Of a stretch of 64,000 nucleotides of DNA, positions 12,575 through 38,478 are shown one piece after another. The DNA is from a virus. The position numbers and the translations under genes were made by a program. The stretch spans positions 11,470 to 75,469 of the IMG/VR virus record IMGVR_UViG_3300025012_000066; one strand, 5' to 3'. How positions within the stretch are numbered: position 1 is the first letter of the stretch; each line of letters begins with the position of its first letter. The notes beneath the pieces are model-generated. The model saw only the letters and a program-made list of their open reading frames with translations. It searched no databases and was not told the origin of the DNA.

Positions 12575-13567
12575 ATGACGAGAAAAAAGACGAACGAAGA
12601 ATTTATTAATGAATTATATAATTTAAGAGGTAATCAATATGAAGTATTAGAAAAATATAATGGGAGTCGTATTAAATTATTAACTAGACATAATTGTAAT
12701 GAATGTAATAATTATGAATGGGAAGTTTCTCCTTATGATTTAATAAGTAAAGAAGTGCAATGTCCAGTTTGTCAGCATAAAAAACAAGGAGAGATGAGAG
12801 CAAGATCGCAGGAAACTTTTGAATCACAAGTTTTTAATGTTTTTGGCGATAAATATATTATTAAAGGAAAGTTTAAGAATATTGACAAACAAATTGAAGT
12901 TTATTGTACTATTTGTAATAAATCATGGAGTCCTATTCCTTATCATCTATTGAATGGACATGGATGTCCACATTGTAATGGAAATGCTCAAAAAACAACA
13001 GATGAATTCACTCAACAAATAAAAGATAAACATAAGAATAGATACACAGTAATTGGTAAATACATAAATTCAAAAACAAAAATAGAAATATTATGTAATA
13101 TCTGCAATGAACCTTGGTTAATATTCCCTAATAATTTAATAAGAGATTATGGTGGATGTCCAAATTGTAACCTTAATAGAGCAGAATTAGCAATTAAAGA
13201 ATGCTTAACTCAAAAGCAAATCAATTTTAAACCTCAATATAAATTTGATGATTGTCGTAACATTAAACCATTACCTTTTGATTCAGCAATATTAGATGAA
13301 TATAATAATGTAATAGGTTTAATCGAAGCAGATGGGCAACAGCATTTTGAACCTGTGAGATTTGGTGGTATATCGCAAGAAAAAGCAGAGAAGAATTTTA
13401 TAGAAACTAAAAAGAGGGATAAGATTAAAACGGAATACTGTGAGAAAAATCATATCCCCTTACTCAGAATCCCATATTGGGAGTTCAACAACATAGAACA
13501 AATAATAAATAATTTCATCCAAGAACTATCACCCCAACAAGATAATTCTATTTTAATTGCCAAATAA
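12575..13567 (+). CDS. Zinc-ribbon repeat + Vsr/DUF559-like putative homing endonuclease
   Basis: Repeated CxxC...GCPxC units; C-terminal PFD...LIEADGQQHF...LLRIPYWE. Confidence 0.75.
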   Translation: MTRKKTNEEFINELYNLRGNQYEVLEKYNGSRIKLLTRHNCNECNNYEWEVSPYDLISKEVQCPVCQHKKQGEMRARSQETFESQVFNVFGDKYIIKGKFKNIDKQIEVYCTICNKSWSPIPYHLLNGHGCPHCNGNAQKTTDEFTQQIKDKHKNRYTVIGKYINSKTKIEILCNICNEPWLIFPNNLIRDYGGCPNCNLNRAELAIKECLTQKQINFKPQYKFDDCRNIKPLPFDSAILDEYNNVIGLIEADGQQHFEPVRFGGISQEKAEKNFIETKKRDKIKTEYCEKNHIPLLRIPYWEFNNIEQIINNFIQELSPQQDNSILIAK

Positions 13568-17832: not shown

Positions 17833-19029
17833 ATGAGTAATGGTAATGTATTAGTAGAGTCCCAATCAGCAAGAGAAGAATTAGTAGTCAAGGTAAGTGA
17901 GGAAAGAGTTGGAGAAATCTTAAACAAGGTAAAAGGTTTAGTTTTGTTGGCAGATGATACACACGTGACGACAGAAATGGTTGCGAATTTTTATGAAGTT
18001 GGACTAGAAGCAATAAACAGTTTGATAAAAGATCATCGTAATGAATTAAATACTGATGGGTTAACGGTTTTAGAGGGTGAACAACTAAAGTCCTTTAAGA
18101 ACATCTGTCAAATTGAGTCAAGGGCAAGAGCTTTAACGATTATTCCTCGCAGAGCAATACTTCGTATAGGTATGATTTTAAGAGATAGTATTATCGCTCA
18201 ACAAGTTAGAACTTATTTACTTGATGTTGAAGGTAATACAAAAGTAGAAGATAAACTCATTGCATTAGGACAAGAAACTAACAATATAATATCAATATTA
18301 AATGAAAAGGTAGATAATTTACAATTGAGTAATAATACACTTAGACAAAATAATAGTGTAATTATTACAGACAATGAAGAATTAAAACATAATGTCTTAA
18401 TGTTAATAACTAAAGTTGATGAATTATTAGAGCAACCTCTTTTCAAGATCCACTCTAATTCTAGTAGATTATATGACATGTTAATTATAAATGACTTTAT
18501 GAATGCAATGGAATCATTAGGAATGAAAAAATCATATGATAAACATTACGCTTTGTTTAATAAAGAGTTTGAGAATTGGACAGGAATAAATTTTGGTGAT
18601 AAGAAAATAAATAAAAAACAATATTGGATTTCATATTATGGAATTGAATCAATAAAGCAATTTATCGTTGGTATTGCACAGAAAATAATTATTAAAAATG
18701 ATAATGGATATTGGGTTAGCAAAGCAGGTATTTATAGCAATAAAGTTGAATGGAAGAAAATATTAAATTCCTTTGGCAATAAATGTGCTTATTGCAGTAG
18801 CGAAGAAATAATTCTAGCAGAACATATTGTGCCACAAAGTAGTGAGGGATCAACCGATTGTATTCATAATTTAATTCCAAGTTGTTCTCTTTGTAATGAT
18901 AGAAAAGGTACAATGGATATGAAGTCATGGATAGAACTTAAAAGAAAAGAGGGAATGACTGATGAACAATATGAAAAAATTAGAGATCATTGGAGAAAAT
19001 ATCATATTGTTTTAGATTTAGATATTTAA
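17833..19029 (+). CDS. Antirepressor-like N-terminal domain fused to HNH nuclease
   Basis: VANFYEV...PRRAILRIGMILRDS..A..VRTYLL N-domain; CAYC...EHIVP...NLIPSCSLCNDRKG HNH. Confidence 0.7.
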   Translation: MSNGNVLVESQSAREELVVKVSEERVGEILNKVKGLVLLADDTHVTTEMVANFYEVGLEAINSLIKDHRNELNTDGLTVLEGEQLKSFKNICQIESRARALTIIPRRAILRIGMILRDSIIAQQVRTYLLDVEGNTKVEDKLIALGQETNNIISILNEKVDNLQLSNNTLRQNNSVIITDNEELKHNVLMLITKVDELLEQPLFKIHSNSSRLYDMLIINDFMNAMESLGMKKSYDKHYALFNKEFENWTGINFGDKKINKKQYWISYYGIESIKQFIVGIAQKIIIKNDNGYWVSKAGIYSNKVEWKKILNSFGNKCAYCSSEEIILAEHIVPQSSEGSTDCIHNLIPSCSLCNDRKGTMDMKSWIELKRKEGMTDEQYEKIRDHWRKYHIVLDLDI

Positions 19030-25181: not shown

Positions 25182-25436
25182 ATGTATAAAGTAAAAGTAA
25201 AGATTATTATGACAGCAATATTAGAGGTTGAAATCAACCAAGAGAAAATGTTTGATCCTGATGACTTTGAGGAAGAAGATATACCGACCATTAATGATTC
25301 TATTAAAGGAGTTGTAGAAAGTTATATTGATAATCCTATAGCTTTTGTGGATGATGAAAGTGTTAAGATAAACATAAGGCATGAAGTTATTGGAGAAATT
25401 CAAAAGTGTAAAATTAAAGCAGAGATAATGAATTAA
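25182..25436 (+). CDS. Hypothetical protein
   Basis: ORF followed by hairpin/T-run ~25445-25480. Confidence 0.5.
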   Translation: MYKVKVKIIMTAILEVEINQEKMFDPDDFEEEDIPTINDSIKGVVESYIDNPIAFVDDESVKINIRHEVIGEIQKCKIKAEIMN

Positions 25437-25604
25437 CTTAATAAGGGGAAGTAAAATTCCCTTTCTGCTTTTTCTTTTCTTATGAATATAAAAAATAATA
25501 TTATCCTTGACAAACTTTGGCAGATAGTGGTATGATGAAAGAGTAGAAAGTGAGGTGAGGGAAAATGGATATTAAATCAATAAATAAATTTTACAAAATA
25601 AAAC

Positions 25605-25633
25605 TTGACAGGCATTTCCACTTATGGTAAACT
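25605..25633 (+). promoter_or_regulatory. sigma-A promoter upstream of the tracrRNA/CRISPR locus
   Basis: TTGACA-17-TAAACT; a second TTGACA-18-TATGAT at 25507-25536. Confidence 0.6.
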
Positions 25634-25733
25634 GATTATAGGTTGAAGCAAGAAATAAAAAGAAAAGTTGTGATAATTAATGTTTATAAATACATAAATA
25701 AATTATTAAGTTCACAATCATTAATTAAATAAA

Positions 25734-25957
25734 AGGCCATCTTAGAAAGGTATTCCTTTAGTTGTGTTTTTAACAACTTGGCCTAAAATCGAGAAGTGTT
25801 CATAATATCTTATTTATAAGGTTGTGAATAACACTCGTAAGGTAATGGGAATAATGCGAATGTAAGGTATACATAAAAATACTAGGTATTTCGCACCCAT
25901 TGAAACTGCTGGCACAAATACCGTCCAGCACTCTTATATGTATATACAAATTGTAAC
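25734..25957 (+). ncRNA. tracrRNA of a type V-F (Cas12f) system
   Basis: Anti-repeat 25932-25957 matches repeat 3 at 25/26; blocks CGAGAAGTG, AACACTCG.TAAGGTA, TGAAACT.....CACAAA.ACCG match the AsCas12f1 tracrRNA as recalled. Confidence 0.85.
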
Positions 25958-26022
25958 AATTAAATAGGTTCGCATTTTATATAGTTGTAAGTGTTGGTGT
26001 GATTGAGTTGCAATGTAGGGCT

Positions 26023-26190
26023 GTTACAACTTGTGTGTATGTATAAGATGTAAGTATCACTCCTCTTAAACCTCTATTAATGTTCTTCCGTTACAACTTG
26101 CATATACATATAAGATATAAGTATCAAGATATTCCAAAAGGCAAAATCACACATCGTTACAACTTGTATATACATATAAGATGTAAGTAC
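26023..26190 (+). CRISPR. Mini CRISPR array: three 35-bp repeats, two spacers (32 and 31 bp)
   Basis: Repeats GTTACAACTTGyrTrTAyrTATAAGATrTAAGTAy at 26023-57, 26090-124, 26156-190 with unique spacers. Confidence 0.9.
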
Positions 26191-26252
26191 CTTTGCACCA
26201 ATCTTATTTACGATTTTAACTCATAAAAATAAATTAAAAGAGGATGATATAA

Positions 26253-27612
26253 ATGAATCAATGTGTAAAAATTGAAATAAAGAAAACGATTATAAAAAAA
26301 TATTGGATTATAGGAAAATATTAAGAGATTTAAGGTATCAATCATGGTTAGCGTTCAATAAAGCAATGACTTATTTTTGCACATTTGCTATGGAAAATAT
26401 GGAATACAAGGAATTAAATGGTGTAAATATAAATGAACGTGAAAGATTTGGTAAAACTCATGGAGCTTGGATACAAAACAGAATGAATGAAGTTATGGTA
26501 TCTCATAATAGTGGAAATGTTGCTCAAGCATATCAATTTGTATCAAAAAGATTTAGTGATGATAAAAAGAAAGGTGTGTTCAAAGGGCAGTCTGGAGTTT
26601 CAAATTTTAAGTTAAATGATCCAATAATTATAAAGAACACTAATTATAAAATTAATGTTAATAATAAGGGATTTGAAGTTGAATGTAGTTTATTTAATAG
26701 GATATATCAAAAAGAAAATAATATAAAACAAGTGAATTTCACTATTGAAAGTTTGGGTACTAGCCAAAAATTTATATTAAATAAAATTATATCTGGAGAA
26801 TACAAACAAGGGTCTGCACAAATTATTGAAGATAAAAAGAAAAGTGATAAGTGGTATCTAATAATAAGTTTTAGTTTTGAACCAGTTACAAGGCAATTAG
26901 ATATGAATAAAGTATTAGGAATTGACTTAGGATTAGTAAATACAGCAGTAATGCAAGTATTTGATATGAGTACTGAAAAATGGGATAAATTATCTTGGAA
27001 TGAGATAAATTATCTTGGAATGAGAGCGTAATTAATGGCAAGGAAATATCACAGTTTAGAAATAAACTAAATGCTAGAAAAAGGCAAATTCAAAAAGCCA
27101 GTAAAATTGTTGGTAATGGGAGAATAGGGCATGGTAGAAATACTAGAATGAAACCATTGATAGATATTGGTGATAAAGTAGCAAGATTTAAAGATACATA
27201 TAACCATAAAGTTAGCAAATACATAGTAGAATTTGCTGTAAAACATAATTGTGCTACAATTCAAATGGAAAATCTAAGTGGATTTTCAGAACAACAATCA
27301 GTAAAATTTTTAAAGAATTGGGCATATCATGATTTGCAAACAAAGATTCAATATAAATGTGAAGAAAAGGGTATTAAGTTCGTACTCATTGACCCAAAGT
27401 ACACAAGCAAGAGATGTAGTCATTGTGGATGTATTAGTGATGAAAATAGAGATTGCAAGGGTAATCAAGCAAGGTTTAAATGTGTTACATGTGGACATGA
27501 AGAAAATGCAGATATTAATGCTGCAAAAAATATTAGTATACCAATGATTGATAGTATTATTGTGGATCAATTGAAGATGATGAAAGAGTTTAAGGATAAG
27601 AAGATTAGTTAA
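26253..27612 (+). pseudogene. cas12f: Cas12f (AsCas12f1-like, type V-F) split by two frameshifts; ~446 aa when repaired
   Basis: RuvC-I GIDLG, RuvC-II QMENL, CxxC/CxxC zinc finger, RuvC-III NADINAA; GHGR bridge; adjacent tracrRNA and array; -1 lesion near the A7 run 26294-300 and a 20-bp duplication 26984-27023. Confidence 0.85.
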
Positions 27613-27708
27613 TATGATCTAGTGTTTAAATACGTTATTAACTCCTTACCCACCAAGGATTAATATAAATAGGGTTGTGACCTACACTAAATTAGAAAGG
27701 GGCAAATT

Positions 27709-28269
27709 ATGTCTAAAAATATTAATATTGAAACCCAAGTTCAACTCGATGAAAAAAGTCACATTATTCTCAATGAGAAATTAAAAACCTTTAATTTAGA
27801 CAGTGATATGAATTATGCTGTTGCAGTTCTGAAAATATTTATTACAAATTCAGAATCAAAGAAATATAATAAGTTAGCTGTTAATGTTGTACCTAAAGTA
27901 CAATTTGTTGTACCATTTGTTTCAAAAATACTGGCAACTGAATATATGAAGGAATTGTCTCAGAAAAATAAGTTAATGATGTTTCTTCATGTTGAAAAAG
28001 GTAATATTGTTGTAAAAGATGAAGATATTGATTTAGCTATTAATAATTTACTAAATACATCAACAAGTCCAGAAATAGAATATGAAGAAATATCTAGATT
28101 AAGTTTATTTAATCTTATTGCCTATAATTGGATGAATTTCTCAGAACAAGAAAAAGATGAATATGCTTATAAACTAGGAGGATTGAACGGGCATTATCAC
28201 ATACGAGCACTACTTGATAATTGGGAATTTAGTCCTGAGTTTGAGAAAGAAGTAGTAAACTATATATAA
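27709..28269 (+). CDS. Hypothetical protein
   Basis: 186 aa ORF with RBS. Confidence 0.6.
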   Translation: MSKNINIETQVQLDEKSHIILNEKLKTFNLDSDMNYAVAVLKIFITNSESKKYNKLAVNVVPKVQFVVPFVSKILATEYMKELSQKNKLMMFLHVEKGNIVVKDEDIDLAINNLLNTSTSPEIEYEEISRLSLFNLIAYNWMNFSEQEKDEYAYKLGGLNGHYHIRALLDNWEFSPEFEKEVVNYI

Positions 28270-28364
28270 AATTTATTAAACATACTACTTAGTGATATCT
28301 GCTGAGGTGGGCAGTAGATATAAAGATTAAAATATAAAATAAATTAATGGAGGTTTAAATTAAC

Positions 28365-28604
28365 ATGAAAGATTATGACGGATTAGGAAATGGTATTATT
28401 GCTAACGAAACTTTAAAAATGCTCATAAGAGATATTAGTAAACAATGGGGCAATATTTTCTCATCTGAAGACAAAGAAGAAATTGCTGAGTTTATAGTGG
28501 GGAAACATAATAAAGAATTGTTTATTACTTTATTAGATTCTCCATATTTTCAATGGTTGATAGGAATGATTTCTGAAGAAAATACCGGAAGACCAATATC
28601 TTAA
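28365..28604 (+). CDS. Hypothetical protein
   Basis: RBS GGAGG. Confidence 0.55.
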   Translation: MKDYDGLGNGIIANETLKMLIRDISKQWGNIFSSEDKEEIAEFIVGKHNKELFITLLDSPYFQWLIGMISEENTGRPIS

Positions 28605-28873
28605 TATAATGTAATATGTATATATTGACCCATAGCAGAGGGGTTCATACTCTGCTAATATATTGATAAGGATGTGGTGTTTCTATGAATTCTAAAACTG
28701 CCGTAAAAATTAGAAATAAGGGAATGTGGTTTCATAAGCATGGGAAACACAAAGGATTAAAAGAAATATCAATTATATTTAACAAGAGAAGAAGATTTAT
28801 GTATGTGTTTGAACCAATAGATATTAGTTGTGGGAATTGGTCAAGTTTTAGGTGGTAGAAAGGAAGTTTAATT

Positions 28874-29192: not shown

Positions 29193-30443
29193 TTGGGCAA
29201 AAATTTTACTATTGACTATGAAATTATTAGTAGTTTTAAATTAAAATTGGTGGGAACAGAACCTAAAAACGCAAAACAAAATTTTACAATGGAAGACAAA
29301 GAGGGATATATTTATTTTGGCAATTTAAGTGATATGAAACAAAAATTGAAACAGAATCATTCTCTGAGTAGATTTCATACATCAAATTCGCATACTATAG
29401 ATAATATAAAACTATGGTGCAAATTAAATAGTGTTGAATTGGAATTAGTAAGTACAATATATTTAAACAACAAACAAAAACTGGTGTTCAAAGACAAAGA
29501 AGGATATTATTATCTTTTATCTTTAGATTGCCTGCGAAGAAATTCGACGGCTTCTAGATTTCACAAATCAAACTCATATACAATACAAAATATAAAACTA
29601 TGGTGCAATTTAAATAATAAACCATTTAAATTAATTAGTAAAATATATGTTGGTGCTGATGATAAATTAGAATGGCAATGTTTAAAAGATGGTTGTGGCG
29701 AAATATTCAAAATGAAATGGAGTCATATTTATGATAACCACGGTTGTGGGTTCTGTCATGGCAAACAAATTGGTTTGTCAAATTGTCTTGAAACTTTAAG
29801 ATTTAAACTTTCTAAAGAATGGCATCCTATAAAGAATGGTGATTTAACTCCATTTGATGTAACAGTAAGTAATGGAGAGTATGCTTGGTGGAGTTGTAAA
29901 AAATGTAATCATGAATGGGAAGCAGTTATTGCTAGTAGAAGTAGTGGAATTGGTTGTCCTAGATGTGCTGAAATTAATGCAGAATCTCATTTACAGAAGA
30001 GAACAAGACTATACATAAATGAATGTGGATACGATGTATTACATGAAAAAGAATGCACGTTAAATCCTAAAAATATAATAAACCCTCCTGTAAATATTAT
30101 AAGCAATAAACAGAGAAGAAAGGGGATATTAAGATATGATAATGAAATAATAATTGATAATAGACATCTTTTTATCGAAGTTAACGGACAGCAACATGAT
30201 TTAGAGGATAATATATTTAATATAAAATCTTCTAAAAAGCACAATACCACACCAAAAGAAGAGTTAGAATATCTTAAAGCTAGGGATAAATTTAAAGAAC
30301 AATATGTACATATGCAAGGAGAAAATTATTATTACTTAGTATTGTGGTATTACGATTTTGATAAAGAGGATACATATAAAAAATTGATAGATGATAAGAT
30401 AAATGAGGTATTATCAAACCTTCCACTCCCAAAAGCAATATAG
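29193..30443 (+). CDS. Zinc-ribbon + Vsr-like putative homing endonuclease
   Basis: EWHPIKNG...WWSC..C.HEW...GCPRC; LRYD...IEVNGQQH. Confidence 0.75.
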   Translation: MGKNFTIDYEIISSFKLKLVGTEPKNAKQNFTMEDKEGYIYFGNLSDMKQKLKQNHSLSRFHTSNSHTIDNIKLWCKLNSVELELVSTIYLNNKQKLVFKDKEGYYYLLSLDCLRRNSTASRFHKSNSYTIQNIKLWCNLNNKPFKLISKIYVGADDKLEWQCLKDGCGEIFKMKWSHIYDNHGCGFCHGKQIGLSNCLETLRFKLSKEWHPIKNGDLTPFDVTVSNGEYAWWSCKKCNHEWEAVIASRSSGIGCPRCAEINAESHLQKRTRLYINECGYDVLHEKECTLNPKNIINPPVNIISNKQRRKGILRYDNEIIIDNRHLFIEVNGQQHDLEDNIFNIKSSKKHNTTPKEELEYLKARDKFKEQYVHMQGENYYYLVLWYYDFDKEDTYKKLIDDKINEVLSNLPLPKAI

Positions 30444-30460
30444 TTAAATACATAAATAAT

Positions 30461-30643
30461 TATTATATTGTACCAGTATCACCTATTCAGATGAGATTTC
30501 CAGTATATAATAGTAGTATATTTTCATCGTGGGAAGGTCATTTTCGTATACTTGGAGATCAAGAAGCAAGGGATATAGTTTATCATAGTGGATTAGGTTC
30601 AAAAACAAATTGTGGATTTGGCTGTTTGGATAGGGTTATATAA
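30461..30643 (+). pseudogene. cas6: C-terminal remnant of Cas6 (not in ORF track)
   Basis: WEGHFRILGDQEARDIVYHSGLGSKTNCGFGCL*: the Cas6 GhGxxxxxGhG glycine loop with its preceding W.G.F strand. Confidence 0.75.
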
Positions 30644-36957: not shown

Positions 36958-38478
36958 ATGGGATTGATTAGTACAGAGGTTGAGGTTGGAGTAAATGGCA
37001 AAAATATTGAACAATATGAAGAAAAAGGTTATAAATTTGAAAGATATTATAATGAACATAATAGAAAAATGTTAGTTAGAAAAGGAACAAAGATAAAAGT
37101 TAGAGTAGAAGATTTAGGTGATAAATCTAGTGCGAAGGTAGATGCAGAATGTGATGGCTGTGGTAAAGAATTAAAAGGAATAAGATGGGTAGATTATAAG
37201 GAACAAGTAAAAGAAGATGGAAAATATTTTTGTATAAGATGTGCTAGTGCTGGATTTAAACAATGGATAAGTTTTTATAAATGGTGCTATGATAATTTAC
37301 CAAAAGAATTAGCAGATTATATATTAAGTAGATGGAATAAAGAATTAAATATTGATAAAGATGGCAACCAATTAACTTCTCACGATGTTAGTTATGCTTC
37401 ACAAGGTATAGACAGGAAAGGATATTGGTTTAATTGTTTAGATAACTTTGAACACAAACCAGAACAAAAACATATAAGTTCTTTTACAGGAGGACAAAGA
37501 GGTAGTCTTGATTGTGATATGTGTAACACCATTTTTGTTACTCATCATCACTTAGTACACTTCTTTGTTAATAAAGAGGATGCACATAAATACTCTTTTG
37601 GATCAGGTAAGTATGTATTAGTTAAATGTCCAGACTGTAGTTATGAAAAAAGAATTAAAATTTCCAATTTGGTAAATCACGGGTTTGGTTGTAATCGTTG
37701 CGGAGATGGTGTTAGCTTCTCAGAAAAGGTTACGATAAATGTTTTAGAACAATTACACGAAACATTTATAATTCAATTATCTAAAACTACTTTTAAATGG
37801 TGTAAAGATTATAGATATGATTTATATATAAATAAAATAAATGGGATTTGCGAGGTTATGGGCAACCAACACTACGAAGAAACATATGGCAAATGGGGGA
37901 CATTGCAAGAGATACAAGAAAATGATAGGGACAAAGAAAATTTAGCTAAAGAAAATAATATTACTAATTACATAATTATAGACTGTAGGAGAAGTGAATT
38001 AGAATGGATTAAAAACAATATTATGAATCGTGATCCAAGTCGTCCAGATCAACAATGTCTTGCAGAAGTATTAAACTTTAATGAATCTGATATTGATTGG
38101 TTAAAAGTCTATGAATCAGGGTTCAGAAACTTAGTTAAGACAGCATGTATTTTATGGAATGAAGGACTTAAAAGCACAGTCAAGATAGGGAATAATTTAA
38201 ATTTAAGTAGTGGAGCAATAAGAAATTATCTCAAAAAAGGAACTGAATTAGGATGGTGTTCTTATAATCCAAAAGAAGAGATATGTGAGAAAGTAATATG
38301 CTTGACAACTGGTGAAATATTTAACTCCATACATGAAGCTTCATTGAATGGTAGAGAATCAATTAGACCAAATATTTCTGCTTGTTGTAAAGGAAAACAT
38401 AAATCAGCAGGCAAGTCAATAACTGGCGAGCCGTTGGTTTGGATGTACTATGATAAATATTTAGAAATCAACAAATAA
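36958..38478 (+). CDS. Zinc-ribbon/Vsr-like putative homing endonuclease with NUMOD1-like C-terminus
   Basis: CxxC repeats, YRYD...EVMGNQHY, KVICLTTGEIFNSIHEAS. Confidence 0.75.
   Translation: MGLISTEVEVGVNGKNIEQYEEKGYKFERYYNEHNRKMLVRKGTKIKVRVEDLGDKSSAKVDAECDGCGKELKGIRWVDYKEQVKEDGKYFCIRCASAGFKQWISFYKWCYDNLPKELADYILSRWNKELNIDKDGNQLTSHDVSYASQGIDRKGYWFNCLDNFEHKPEQKHISSFTGGQRGSLDCDMCNTIFVTHHHLVHFFVNKEDAHKYSFGSGKYVLVKCPDCSYEKRIKISNLVNHGFGCNRCGDGVSFSEKVTINVLEQLHETFIIQLSKTTFKWCKDYRYDLYINKINGICEVMGNQHYEETYGKWGTLQEIQENDRDKENLAKENNITNYIIIDCRRSELEWIKNNIMNRDPSRPDQQCLAEVLNFNESDIDWLKVYESGFRNLVKTACILWNEGLKSTVKIGNNLNLSSGAIRNYLKKGTELGWCSYNPKEEICEKVICLTTGEIFNSIHEASLNGRESIRPNISACCKGKHKSAGKSITGEPLVWMYYDKYLEINK

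What the first reader, a model, noticed from the sequence alone, without database searches (positions are those of the whole stretch)
25734..27612. Complete phage-borne miniature type V-F CRISPR locus (tracrRNA + mini-array + cas12f) without adaptation genes
Seen: three 35-bp repeats with two unique spacers, a 26-nt anti-repeat 65 bp upstream, and a TnpB/Cas12-type gene with all three RuvC acidic motifs (GIDLG, QMENL, NADINAA) plus the zinc finger. Knowledge (recalled, unsearched): protein blocks such as NSGN.AQ, ISGEY...QII....KWYL.IS..FEP and GHGR..R.KP, and tracr blocks such as CGAGAAGUG, CUCG.UAAGGUA and UGAAACU...CACAAA.ACCG, match AsCas12f1. No cas1/2/4 is in the window. Inference: a ~1.9 kb RNA-guided module, probably for phage-phage competition, and a candidate new compact editor with a natural tracrRNA. 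I found no convincing protospacer in the window.
Basis: partly seen in the sequence, partly recalled or inferred. Interest (0 to 1): 0.85.

Follow-up and report, generated by a model that had tools for sequence, protein, structure and literature searches.

The report
Phage Cas12f CRISPR module, effector gene broken
A large phage carries a miniature AsCas12f-type CRISPR module (tracrRNA, three-repeat array, cas12f, no adaptation genes), a kind already known from phages, but in this genome the nuclease gene has just been knocked out by a 13-base deletion and a 20-base tandem duplication.

Summary
There are three repeats, two spacers and a 26-nt anti-repeat 65 nt upstream. A Cas12f gene follows whose closest solved relative is AsCas12f (intact allele L054: E 1e-87, end to end). 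The upstream RNA is a true homolog of the AsCas12f tracrRNA. It has the same sequence blocks in the same order, folds well (z -3.65), and shows covariation in ten loci, including the second repeat:anti-repeat duplex. The host record is a phage fragment with no Cas1/2/4, no TnpA and one gene copy.

The locus is not "complete". cas12f (26253-27612) is split over three frames by a 13-nt deletion between AATAAA direct repeats (~26278/26279) and an exact 20-bp tandem duplication (26986-27025). The nearest allele (L054, 448 aa) is intact and almost identical over 900 nt. dN/dS in the clade is 0.04-0.15, so the lesions are fresh. Two other close alleles carry their own private frameshifts.

About 60 viral and metagenome contigs, and two cultured phages, carry the same gene-plus-mini-array design. 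Phage type V-F systems without adaptation genes were reported in 2020. The window and L054 share one spacer at different array positions, so spacers turn over. No protospacer was found anywhere.

Earlier notes of this scan cover this same stretch. Verdict: new member of a known kind, recently inactivated copy, modest interest.

The parts
25443..25464 (+). Terminator-like hairpin of the upstream gene; it coincides with the left edge of the conserved module
   Evidence: 8-bp stem followed by a T-run. The homology blocks with L054, L056, L057, L063, L064 and L069 all begin at 25435-25446.
25507..25536 (+). Promoter-like site P1 (TTGACA, 18 nt, TATGAT, with TG before the -10)
   Evidence: 11 of 12 matches. 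It lies inside the block conserved with L005 and L054. Function is not shown.
25605..25633 (+). Promoter-like site P2 (TTGACA, 17 nt, TAAACT), about 100 nt before tracr stem 1
   Evidence: 10 of 12 matches. The sequence is identical in L005. Function is not shown.
25734..25784 (+). tracrRNA stem 1 (AGGCCA/UGGCCU closing a branched hairpin). Its 5' loop carries CUUA (25741-25744), complementary to the repeat's last bases UAAG, which is the proposed R:AR-2 duplex
   Evidence: Fold; compensatory changes against L006; the loop motif co-varies with the repeat 3' end across loci.
25785..25931 (+). tracrRNA core, stems 2-4, with the blocks CGAGAAGUG, CUCGUAAGGUA, an expanded stem, UGAAACU, and GCUGG-CACAAAUACCG-UCCAGC
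   Evidence: z-score -3.65. Homologs occur in 9 other loci. 72% of cells pair against at most 47% when the partners are slid, and 0 of 500 shuffles reach the observed count. The blocks appear in the same order in the published AsCas12f1 sgRNA.
25932..25957 (+). Anti-repeat (R:AR-1 partner of the repeat's 5' 26 nt)
   Evidence: 24-25 of 26 positions pair with each repeat, with duplex energies of -25 to -30 kcal/mol.
25958..26022 (+). Leader: a conserved 65-nt segment (GTTCGCA motif; a TGGTATGAT-like extended -10 in relatives). It is not a spacer
   Evidence: the segment is conserved in L012, L013, L014, L015 and L025, which carry unrelated spacers.
26023..26054 (+). Repeat 1 (32-nt conserved unit; four transitions relative to repeat 3)
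26055..26089 (+). Spacer 1 (35 nt), leader-proximal and unique to this genome
   Evidence: No match in any collection.
26090..26121 (+). Repeat 2
26122..26155 (+). Spacer 2 (34 nt), identical to the first spacer of L054
   Evidence: No target found.
26156..26187 (+). Repeat 3 (terminal). The downstream sequence is identical in L054, so it is the array trailer
26253..26278 (+). cas12f pseudogene, piece A (ATG and first 8 codons, frame 0), ending at the 13-nt deletion junction
   Evidence: L054 has 13 extra bases here between two AATAAA direct repeats.
26279..27005 (+). cas12f pseudogene, piece B (frame 2): WED/REC and RuvC-I (GIDLG)
   Evidence: AsCas12f, E 7e-28. 97% identical to L054.
26294..26300 (+). 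A AAA AAA heptamer lying in the zero frame after the deletion. A -1 slip here would rejoin frames A and B (inference only)
   Evidence: Read directly from the sequence. The run is also present, in frame, in the intact alleles.
26986..27025 (+). Exact 20-bp tandem duplication (2 x TAAATTATCTTGGAATGAGA), which shifts the frame
   Evidence: One search shows the two copies are identical. The duplication is absent from L004, L005, L008 and L054.
27026..27612 (+). cas12f pseudogene, piece C (frame 1): RuvC-II (IQMENL), CCCC zinc finger, RuvC-III (NADINAA), stop codon
   Evidence: PF07282, 80.7 bits; AsCas12f, E 4e-55; 95% identical to L054.

Best explanation
This is a roughly 2.2-kb type V-F1 CRISPR-Cas module, orthologous to the AsCas12f1 system, sitting at a syntenic position in a group of large low-GC phages. 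Its order is promoter(s), tracrRNA, leader, three-repeat array, cas12f. In intact relatives the inferred mechanism is as follows. The tracrRNA pairs with each repeat through a long duplex (R:AR-1) and a short loop-tail duplex (R:AR-2). A Cas12f dimer is then loaded with a guide of about 34 nt and cuts matching double-stranded DNA next to a PAM. New spacers must come from adaptation proteins supplied in trans, or from recombination, because the phages encode no Cas1, Cas2 or Cas4. In this particular genome the RNA genes look intact, but cas12f was very recently inactivated by two replication-slippage mutations: a 13-nt deletion between AATAAA direct repeats and an exact 20-bp tandem duplication. 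As sequenced, the module is therefore a freshly dead (or switched-off) allele of an otherwise selected, functional system. Shown here: the anatomy, the homology, RNA covariation, the lesions, purifying selection in the clade, the shared and shifted spacer, and the absence of adaptation genes. Inferred: expression, cleavage, the PAM, the target, and the source of spacers.
For: Protein. The pieces hit AsCas12f at E 7e-28 and 4e-55. The intact allele L054 hits at 1e-87 over its full length, ahead of other Cas12f1 structures, and scores 298 bits against 105 bits for TnpB. PF07282 is matched.

Lesions. The gene reads in three frames. The 20-bp duplication is exact. The 13-nt gap and the 20-nt insertion are seen against L054, which is otherwise nearly identical over 26230-27130. 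The genome search also finds the gene as two pieces, each with an internal stop.

Selection. dN/dS is 0.04-0.15 with dS 0.5-1.25 among the window, L005 and L004. Most relatives are intact.

RNA. The fold z-score is -3.65. tracr homologs occur in 9 loci. Covariation is supported. The blocks match the published AsCas12f1 scaffold. R:AR-2 co-varies with the repeat end. G-U pairs in the stems fix the + strand.

Array. Window spacer 2 equals L054 spacer 1, and all other spacers in the clade are unique.

Context. The record is viral, with tail and homing-endonuclease genes. There is no Cas1/2/4 and no Cas1 in four related virus records, two of them at least 96% complete. There is no TnpA. The flanks are syntenic in L060.
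Against: No expression data exist. No protospacer was found, so target and PAM are unknown. The repeat variants keep their positions (first, second, third) in both the window and L054, although the shared spacer sits at different positions. That fits recombination at least as well as leader-end acquisition. The promoter matches are consensus hits in AT-rich DNA, and the total count is no higher than in shuffled sequence.
Confidence: 0.8

Rival explanations
1. The gene is really intact in the phage. On this reading the two indels are assembly errors, or minor variants captured in the consensus, and the locus is a fully functional V-F1 system.
For: Both lesions are private to this record, and the nearest allele, L054, is identical around them and intact. 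No reads could be examined.
Against: The other long ORFs in the window (1481, 1411 and 903 aa) are uninterrupted, so the record is not error-prone. Indels of 13 and 20 nt with microhomology or exact duplication are typical real slippage products, not typical short-read errors. Independent contigs of close relatives carry their own lesions: L005 has +4 and +1, and L008 has -17 between CAATT repeats.
Confidence: 0.1
2. The lesions form a reversible OFF state rather than decay. The 20-bp tandem duplication would collapse back by slippage. The N-terminal frameshift would be bypassed by a -1 ribosomal slip on the A AAA AAA heptamer that the deletion placed in the zero frame. A subpopulation would then regain nuclease activity.
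For: The heptamer lies 16 nt after the deletion, in the correct frame, and the slip product would have the canonical N-terminal length of the family. Tandem duplications are intrinsically unstable (established knowledge). Three of about nine close alleles carry private, fresh frameshifts although dN/dS is about 0.1. An earlier scan note proposed reversibility.
Against: The A7 run is also present in the intact alleles, where it is simply read as Lys-Lys, so its position is probably a coincidence. No stimulatory structure was identified. The 13-nt deletion cannot itself revert. The lesions in L005 and L008 (+4, +1, -17) are not of a reversible kind.
Confidence: 0.08
3. The RNA genes still work without the local nuclease. 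The intact tracrRNA and array would be used in trans by Cas12f made by co-infecting relatives or by a host V-F system, so the module remains useful after cas12f is lost.
For: The tracr, leader and repeats show no disruptive change, whereas the ORF has two. Intact, nearly identical cas12f alleles co-occur in the same sample series.
Against: The lesions are so recent that the intactness of the RNA genes carries little information. No host V-F locus with this repeat could be searched for. Nothing shows co-infection.
Confidence: 0.07
4. It is an IS200/IS605-type TnpB transposon with an omega-RNA, not a CRISPR system.
For: NCBIfam's only model above its cut-off is the broad 'guided_TnpB' subfamily, and databases label the relatives 'transposase'.
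Against: There is no TnpA and only a single copy. Homology with relatives ends at the stop codon, with no conserved 3' RNA or right end. The guide-RNA scaffold lies upstream, ends in an anti-repeat, and is followed by a repeat-spacer array. The score to AsCas12f is far higher than to TnpB.
Confidence: 0.02

Closest known systems
AsCas12f1 type V-F1 system of Acidibacillus sulfuroxidans (PDB 7WJU, 8J12, 8DZJ)
   Same: The protein aligns end to end, using the intact allele L054 (E 1e-87). The RuvC D/E/D motifs and the CCCC zinc finger are the same. The tracrRNA shares its blocks and stem order, with a long R:AR-1 and a short R:AR-2 formed by the stem-1 loop.
   Different: The locus is phage-borne, has no cas1/cas2/cas4, and has a 3-repeat array. 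Its tracr stem between TAAGGTA and TGAAACT is expanded by about 45 nt. The repeat sequence is unrelated. The N-terminal half of the protein is much more divergent than the C-terminal half. The ORF is broken in this copy.
Phage-encoded type V-F (Cas14) variants and other phage CRISPR systems without adaptation genes (Al-Shayeb et al. 2020, PMC7162821)
   Same: A viral genome, a compact array, a miniature type V effector, and no Cas1/2/4.
   Different: Those were described from huge phages as new V-F subtypes. This one belongs to the AsCas12f1 (V-F1) clade, and its tracrRNA can be aligned to a characterised one. Whether these exact loci were in that survey is unknown.
Unrecognised loci in cultured phages: Alicyclobacillus phage MMB025 and Bacillus phage Mgbh1
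   Same: The protein is 53-54% identical over the C-terminal part and is annotated 'transposase'. A mini-array lies directly upstream: an annotated 171-bp CRISPR in MMB025 and two 37-nt repeats in Mgbh1.
   Different: They have different hosts and repeats. Their genes are intact. Their tracr regions were not examined.
Cas12 hacker (Cas12p), CasPhi (Cas12j), Cas-lambda: other phage-borne miniature type V effectors
   Same: Phage-encoded compact RuvC nucleases with small arrays, thought to target rival nucleic acids.
   Different: They are different protein families and sizes (500-800 aa). Cas12 hacker needs host thioredoxin and uses a GTN PAM. CasPhi and Cas-lambda need no tracrRNA (established knowledge).
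IS200/IS605 TnpB with omega-RNA (for example ISDra2)
   Same: A shared RuvC/TNB core and the same RNA-guided nuclease superfamily.
   Different: Here there is no transposase, no transposon ends, no 3' omega-RNA and only a single copy. There is a CRISPR array and a separate tracrRNA instead.

Membership tests
Type V-F1 CRISPR-Cas12f (AsCas12f1-like) | The effector is homologous to Cas12f1 over WED/REC/RuvC/zinc-finger (TNB) | tested here: met
   AsCas12f is the best hit (298 bits for the intact allele), and PF07282 scores 80.7 bits.
Type V-F1 CRISPR-Cas12f (AsCas12f1-like) | RuvC catalytic D/E/D and CCCC zinc-finger residues are present | tested here: met
   GIDLG, IQMENL, NADINAA and CSHCG...CVTCG align with the AsCas12f motifs.
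Type V-F1 CRISPR-Cas12f (AsCas12f1-like) | The effector is encoded by one uninterrupted ORF | tested here: not met
   The gene reads in three frames, owing to a 13-nt deletion and a 20-bp tandem duplication. The allele in L054 is intact.
Type V-F1 CRISPR-Cas12f (AsCas12f1-like) | An adjacent CRISPR array of direct repeats with unique spacers | tested here: met
   Three repeats and two spacers. Related loci have 2-8 repeats with 64-68 bp spacing.
Type V-F1 CRISPR-Cas12f (AsCas12f1-like) | A tracrRNA with an anti-repeat and the conserved scaffold | tested here: met
   Anti-repeat; fold z-score -3.65; covariation; blocks shared with the published AsCas12f1 sgRNA.
Type V-F1 CRISPR-Cas12f (AsCas12f1-like) | Expression of crRNA and tracrRNA, and RNA-guided, PAM-dependent dsDNA cleavage | not testable with these tools
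No protospacers were found from which to infer a PAM.
Type V-F1 CRISPR-Cas12f (AsCas12f1-like) | Adaptation genes cas1/cas2/cas4 (common in bacterial V-F1 loci, not obligatory) | tested here: not met
   None in the record. No Cas1 in four related virus records.
Phage-encoded CRISPR-Cas lacking adaptation machinery | The locus lies in a viral genome | tested here: met
   It is an IMG/VR virus record, with tail proteins and homing endonucleases. Relatives occur in records with terminal repeats and in cultured phages.
IS200/IS605 TnpB element | An associated TnpA, or defined transposon ends with a 3' omega-RNA | tested here: not met
   No Y1 transposase. Homology to relatives stops at the stop codon, 27611-27615.
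IS200/IS605 TnpB element | Multiple copies in the genome | tested here: not met
   Only this one locus in the 75-kb record. The record is about 45% complete, so the test is partial.

The most novel reading that the evidence does not exclude
Fresh, private frameshifting indels in three of about nine closely related alleles, in a gene whose dN/dS is about 0.1, may not be random decay. They could reflect recurrent selection to silence a phage-borne nuclease, for example because of a self-targeting cost or as escape from a rival's targeting of this gene. They could also reflect a slippage-based ON/OFF switch. On that reading the window allele is a reversible OFF state (collapse of the duplication, plus a -1 slip on A AAA AAA) whose intact tracrRNA and array can still be used in trans.
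Probability: 0.1. Interest if true: 0.6.

Novelty: new member of a known kind. Interest (0 to 1): 0.3.

Why it matters
The finding adds one well-dissected example to the known class of phage-borne miniature type V systems. It shows that a large set of "transposase/TnpB" annotations on Clostridia and Bacilli phages and phage-plasmids are really AsCas12f1-type CRISPR effectors with their own tracrRNA and mini-array. The conserved tracrRNA alignment, with covariation that includes R:AR-2, gives a natural-variation map of the AsCas12f guide scaffold. The intact alleles (for example L054, 448 aa) are ordinary candidates for compact editors. The shared but shifted spacer, together with private fresh knock-outs, gives a small window on how such loci turn over in a phage population that has no adaptation genes. 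None of this opens a new category, and the copy in this window is itself non-functional as encoded.

Tried and rejected
**Protospacer searches.**
- The window spacers found nothing in the own 75-kb record or in related loci, in GenBank phages or plasmids, as exact 24-25-mers in IMG/VR, or in GTDB genomes.
- Twenty spacers from close relatives found nothing in about 490 kb of fetched loci.
- The L026 array against phages and plasmids gave only array-to-array similarity.

**Other searches that led nowhere.**
- Rfam had no family for the tracr.

**Readings I considered and dropped.**
- I first read the first frameshift as a slip in the A7 run, and then as a 25-nt deletion against L005. The nearest allele, L054, shows a 13-nt deletion.
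- I took 25995-26022 to be a 'spacer 0'. It is a conserved leader.
- I considered a natural single-guide fold-back as a general feature. Only L005 has it.
Repeat 1 favours the + strand, while repeats 2 and 3 pair better in the - sense. Strand rests instead on the G-U pairs in the tracr stems and on homology.
- I considered that the module is a mobile cassette. It sits at a syntenic site with mosaic flanks.
- Cas12 hacker (Cas12p) is a different family.
- No array was detected next to the C. perfringens phage-plasmid copy.
Full report
**Observation.**
- Repeats start at 26023, 26090 and 26156, separated by two unrelated spacers.
- A 26-nt anti-repeat lies at 25932-25957, 65 nt before repeat 1.
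- A Cas12-type gene ends at 27612.
- Comparison with relatives shows that the conserved repeat unit is 32 nt and ends in GATGTAAG, so the spacers are 35 and 34 nt.
- The window is part of a 75,469-bp IMG/VR virus record that CheckV estimates to be 45% complete. Its large ORFs match phage tail proteins and several HNH and homing endonucleases.

**The gene and its lesions.** The coding region starts at ATG 26253 and runs in three different frames:
- 26253-26278 in frame 0
- 26279-27005 in frame 2
- 27026-27612 in frame 1

The second break is an exact 20-bp tandem duplication, 26986-27005 repeated at 27006-27025. It is absent from L004, L005, L008 and L054.

The first break looked like a 25-nt deletion against L005. 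The nearest intact allele is L054 (metagenome contig, 448 aa, ATG at 1842), which is almost identical to the window over 26230-27130. Against L054 the break is a 13-nt deletion lying between two AATAAA direct repeats. P0032 and L005 share the 'KEND-KK-LDYRKIL' reading, so the frame-2 reading after the deletion is the ancestral one. An independent six-frame search also returns the gene as two pieces, 97% and 95% identical to L054, each with an internal stop. Both lesions are classic replication-slippage products.

**Family.**
- The two larger pieces hit AsCas12f structures (7WJU, 8J12, 8DZJ) at E 7e-28 and 4e-55.
- The intact L054 protein aligns with AsCas12f from end to end at E 1e-87 (298 bits). 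Other scores are 245 and 204 bits for two further Cas12f1 structures, 127 for 8HR5, 105 for a TnpB and 96 for Un1Cas12f.
- Pfam gives Cas12f1-like_TNB.
- NCBIfam only reaches its broad 'guided_TnpB' subfamily model. This explains why relatives are labelled 'transposase' or 'TnpB'.

**RNA genes.**
- The 227-nt region 25734-25960 folds into a branched stem 1, three further stems and the anti-repeat, with z = -3.65.
- nhmmer finds homologs next to related genes in nine other loci whose proteins range from close to distant relatives.
- On a ten-sequence alignment, 72% of cells pair against at most 47% when partners are slid. 0 of 500 shuffles reach the observed number of double-sided changes. Clear compensatory changes are visible.
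- The G-U pairs in these stems are only possible on the + strand.
- A published AsCas12f1 sgRNA scaffold (bioRxiv 10.1101/2022.10.20.513037) has the same blocks in the same order: CGAGAAGTG, CTCG(G)TAAGGTA, a stem, TGAAACT, and a 5-bp stem around CACAAA-ACCG. The window has about 45 extra nucleotides in the stem after TAAGGTA.
- The stem-1 loop motif tracks the last bases of each locus's own repeat. The pairs are CUUA with UAAG, CUUG with CAAG, UUUCA with UGAAA, CUCU with AGAG, and in AsCas12f GUUCA with UGAAC. This supports the short R:AR-2 duplex and places the start of the guide directly after GUAAG. These 4-5-mers are short and some off-diagonal matches occur, so I rate this as good but not conclusive.
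- The 65 nt between the anti-repeat and repeat 1 are conserved among loci with different spacers, so they are a leader and not a spacer.
- Two near-consensus promoters lie upstream (25507-25536 and 25605-25633) inside the conserved block. Their function is not shown.

**Context.**
- No Cas1, Cas2 or Cas4 is found in the record.
- No Cas1 is found in four related virus records, two of which are at least 96% complete.
- There is no Y1 transposase and no second copy of the gene.
- Homology with relatives starts at 25435-25446, at the upstream gene's terminator, and ends at 27611-27615, at the stop codon.
- L060 matches the window on both sides of the module. The module therefore sits at a syntenic site with mosaic flanks and is not a transposon.

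**Population view.**
- An alignment-based scan of IMG/VR returned 42 loci. Most have an intact 430-470-aa gene and a mini-array with 64-68 bp spacing, upstream or downstream.
- The metagenome scan returned 19 more loci, mostly intact.
- Cultured phages Mgbh1 and MMB025 have the same design under a 'transposase' label.
- In the window's tight clade, three of about nine distinct alleles are broken, each by private indels. The window has -13 and +20. L005/L056 has +4 and +1. L008 has -17 between CAATT repeats and is otherwise identical to L004.
- dN/dS among these lineages is 0.04-0.15 at dS 0.5-1.25. The gene was therefore under purifying selection until very recently.
- Arrays hold 2-4 spacers, and all are unique except window spacer 2, which equals L054 spacer 1. 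The window has a different spacer on the leader side, and L054 has a different one on the trailer side. Spacers therefore turn over between near-identical phages. The repeat variants keep their positions in both arrays, so recombination is as likely as leader-end acquisition.

**Targets.** No protospacer was found in the record itself, in the related loci, in GenBank phages or plasmids, in IMG/VR or in GTDB genomes. The role in 'phage-phage competition' therefore remains an inference from the literature.

**Interpretation.** The best reading (0.8) is a phage-borne AsCas12f1-type module that is functional in the lineage but freshly inactivated in this genome. The rivals are as follows.
- The lesions are artefacts or minor variants (0.1); the reads could not be examined.
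- The lesions are a reversible OFF state, with a -1 slip on the A AAA AAA heptamer at 26294-26300 and collapse of the duplication (0.08). The A7 run is also present in the intact alleles, so its position is probably a coincidence.
- The intact RNAs are used in trans (0.07).
- It is a TnpB transposon (0.02).

**Novelty.** Phage-encoded type V-F variants, and the general lack of Cas1/2/4 in phage CRISPR loci, were reported in 2020 (PMC7162821). Other phage miniature type V effectors are known. This is a new member of a known kind. Earlier notes of this scan describe the same stretch in the same genome.

**Limits.**
- The record is a fragment.
- No expression or read data were available.

Noticed in passing
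window 30407-30643 (+): A Cas6 C-terminal remnant (Pfam Cas_Cas6_C, 37.4 bits against a cut-off of 23; ends in GLGSKTNCGFGCL) lies directly after an HNH homing-endonuclease gene (29193-30443). A related phage contig (L075:184-888) has an intact 234-aa Cas6 that is 82% identical over this part, with no array nearby.
   Followed up: partly
L005:2809-2894 (= L024, L056): In this relative the anti-repeat runs straight into a repeat-like segment, forming a fold-back of about 20 bp. A 31-nt spacer-like segment follows, giving a natural single-guide-like arrangement that replaces the conserved leader (fold z -4.84). It is seen only in this locus, whose cas12f is also broken.
   Followed up: partly
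window 27616-28667: A segment of about 1 kb with two ORFs of unknown function (27709-28269, 186 aa; 28365-28604, 79 aa; the 186-aa ORF had no PHROG hit and the 79-aa ORF was not scanned) lies directly after cas12f. At least its first part is shared with L054. It is absent from L055, L056 and L058-L060, where the module abuts the block that matches window 28668-28854.
   Followed up: no
window 25435-27761 vs L054: Identity is mosaic. The 5' 900 nt of cas12f are almost identical to L054 (1-2 substitutions), whereas the tracr/array region and the 3' third of the gene differ by 7-30 substitutions per 100 nt. This points to recent recombination among co-circulating phages.
   Followed up: partly
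window 12575-13567, 17833-19029, 29193-30443, 36958-38478: There are at least four HNH/homing-endonuclease-like genes in 64 kb (PHROG 559, 2214, 4538, 9084), consistent with the mosaic flanks around the CRISPR module.
   Followed up: no
L009 (C. perfringens plasmid NZ_CP148608.1), L010 (Bacillus phage Mgbh1), L011 (Alicyclobacillus phage MMB025): Public records annotate AsCas12f-like genes as 'transposase'. Mgbh1 has two unannotated 37-nt repeats upstream. MMB025 has an annotated CRISPR plus a second repeat pair upstream. The C. perfringens phage-plasmid copy, which sits between capsid and tape-measure genes, showed no array on either side.
   Followed up: partly
L039:4308-4640 and L041:4309-4640: In these distant relatives the tracr homolog, the leader and a one- or two-repeat array lie downstream of the gene. 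In L041 the spacer between the two repeats is only 16 nt.
   Followed up: partly
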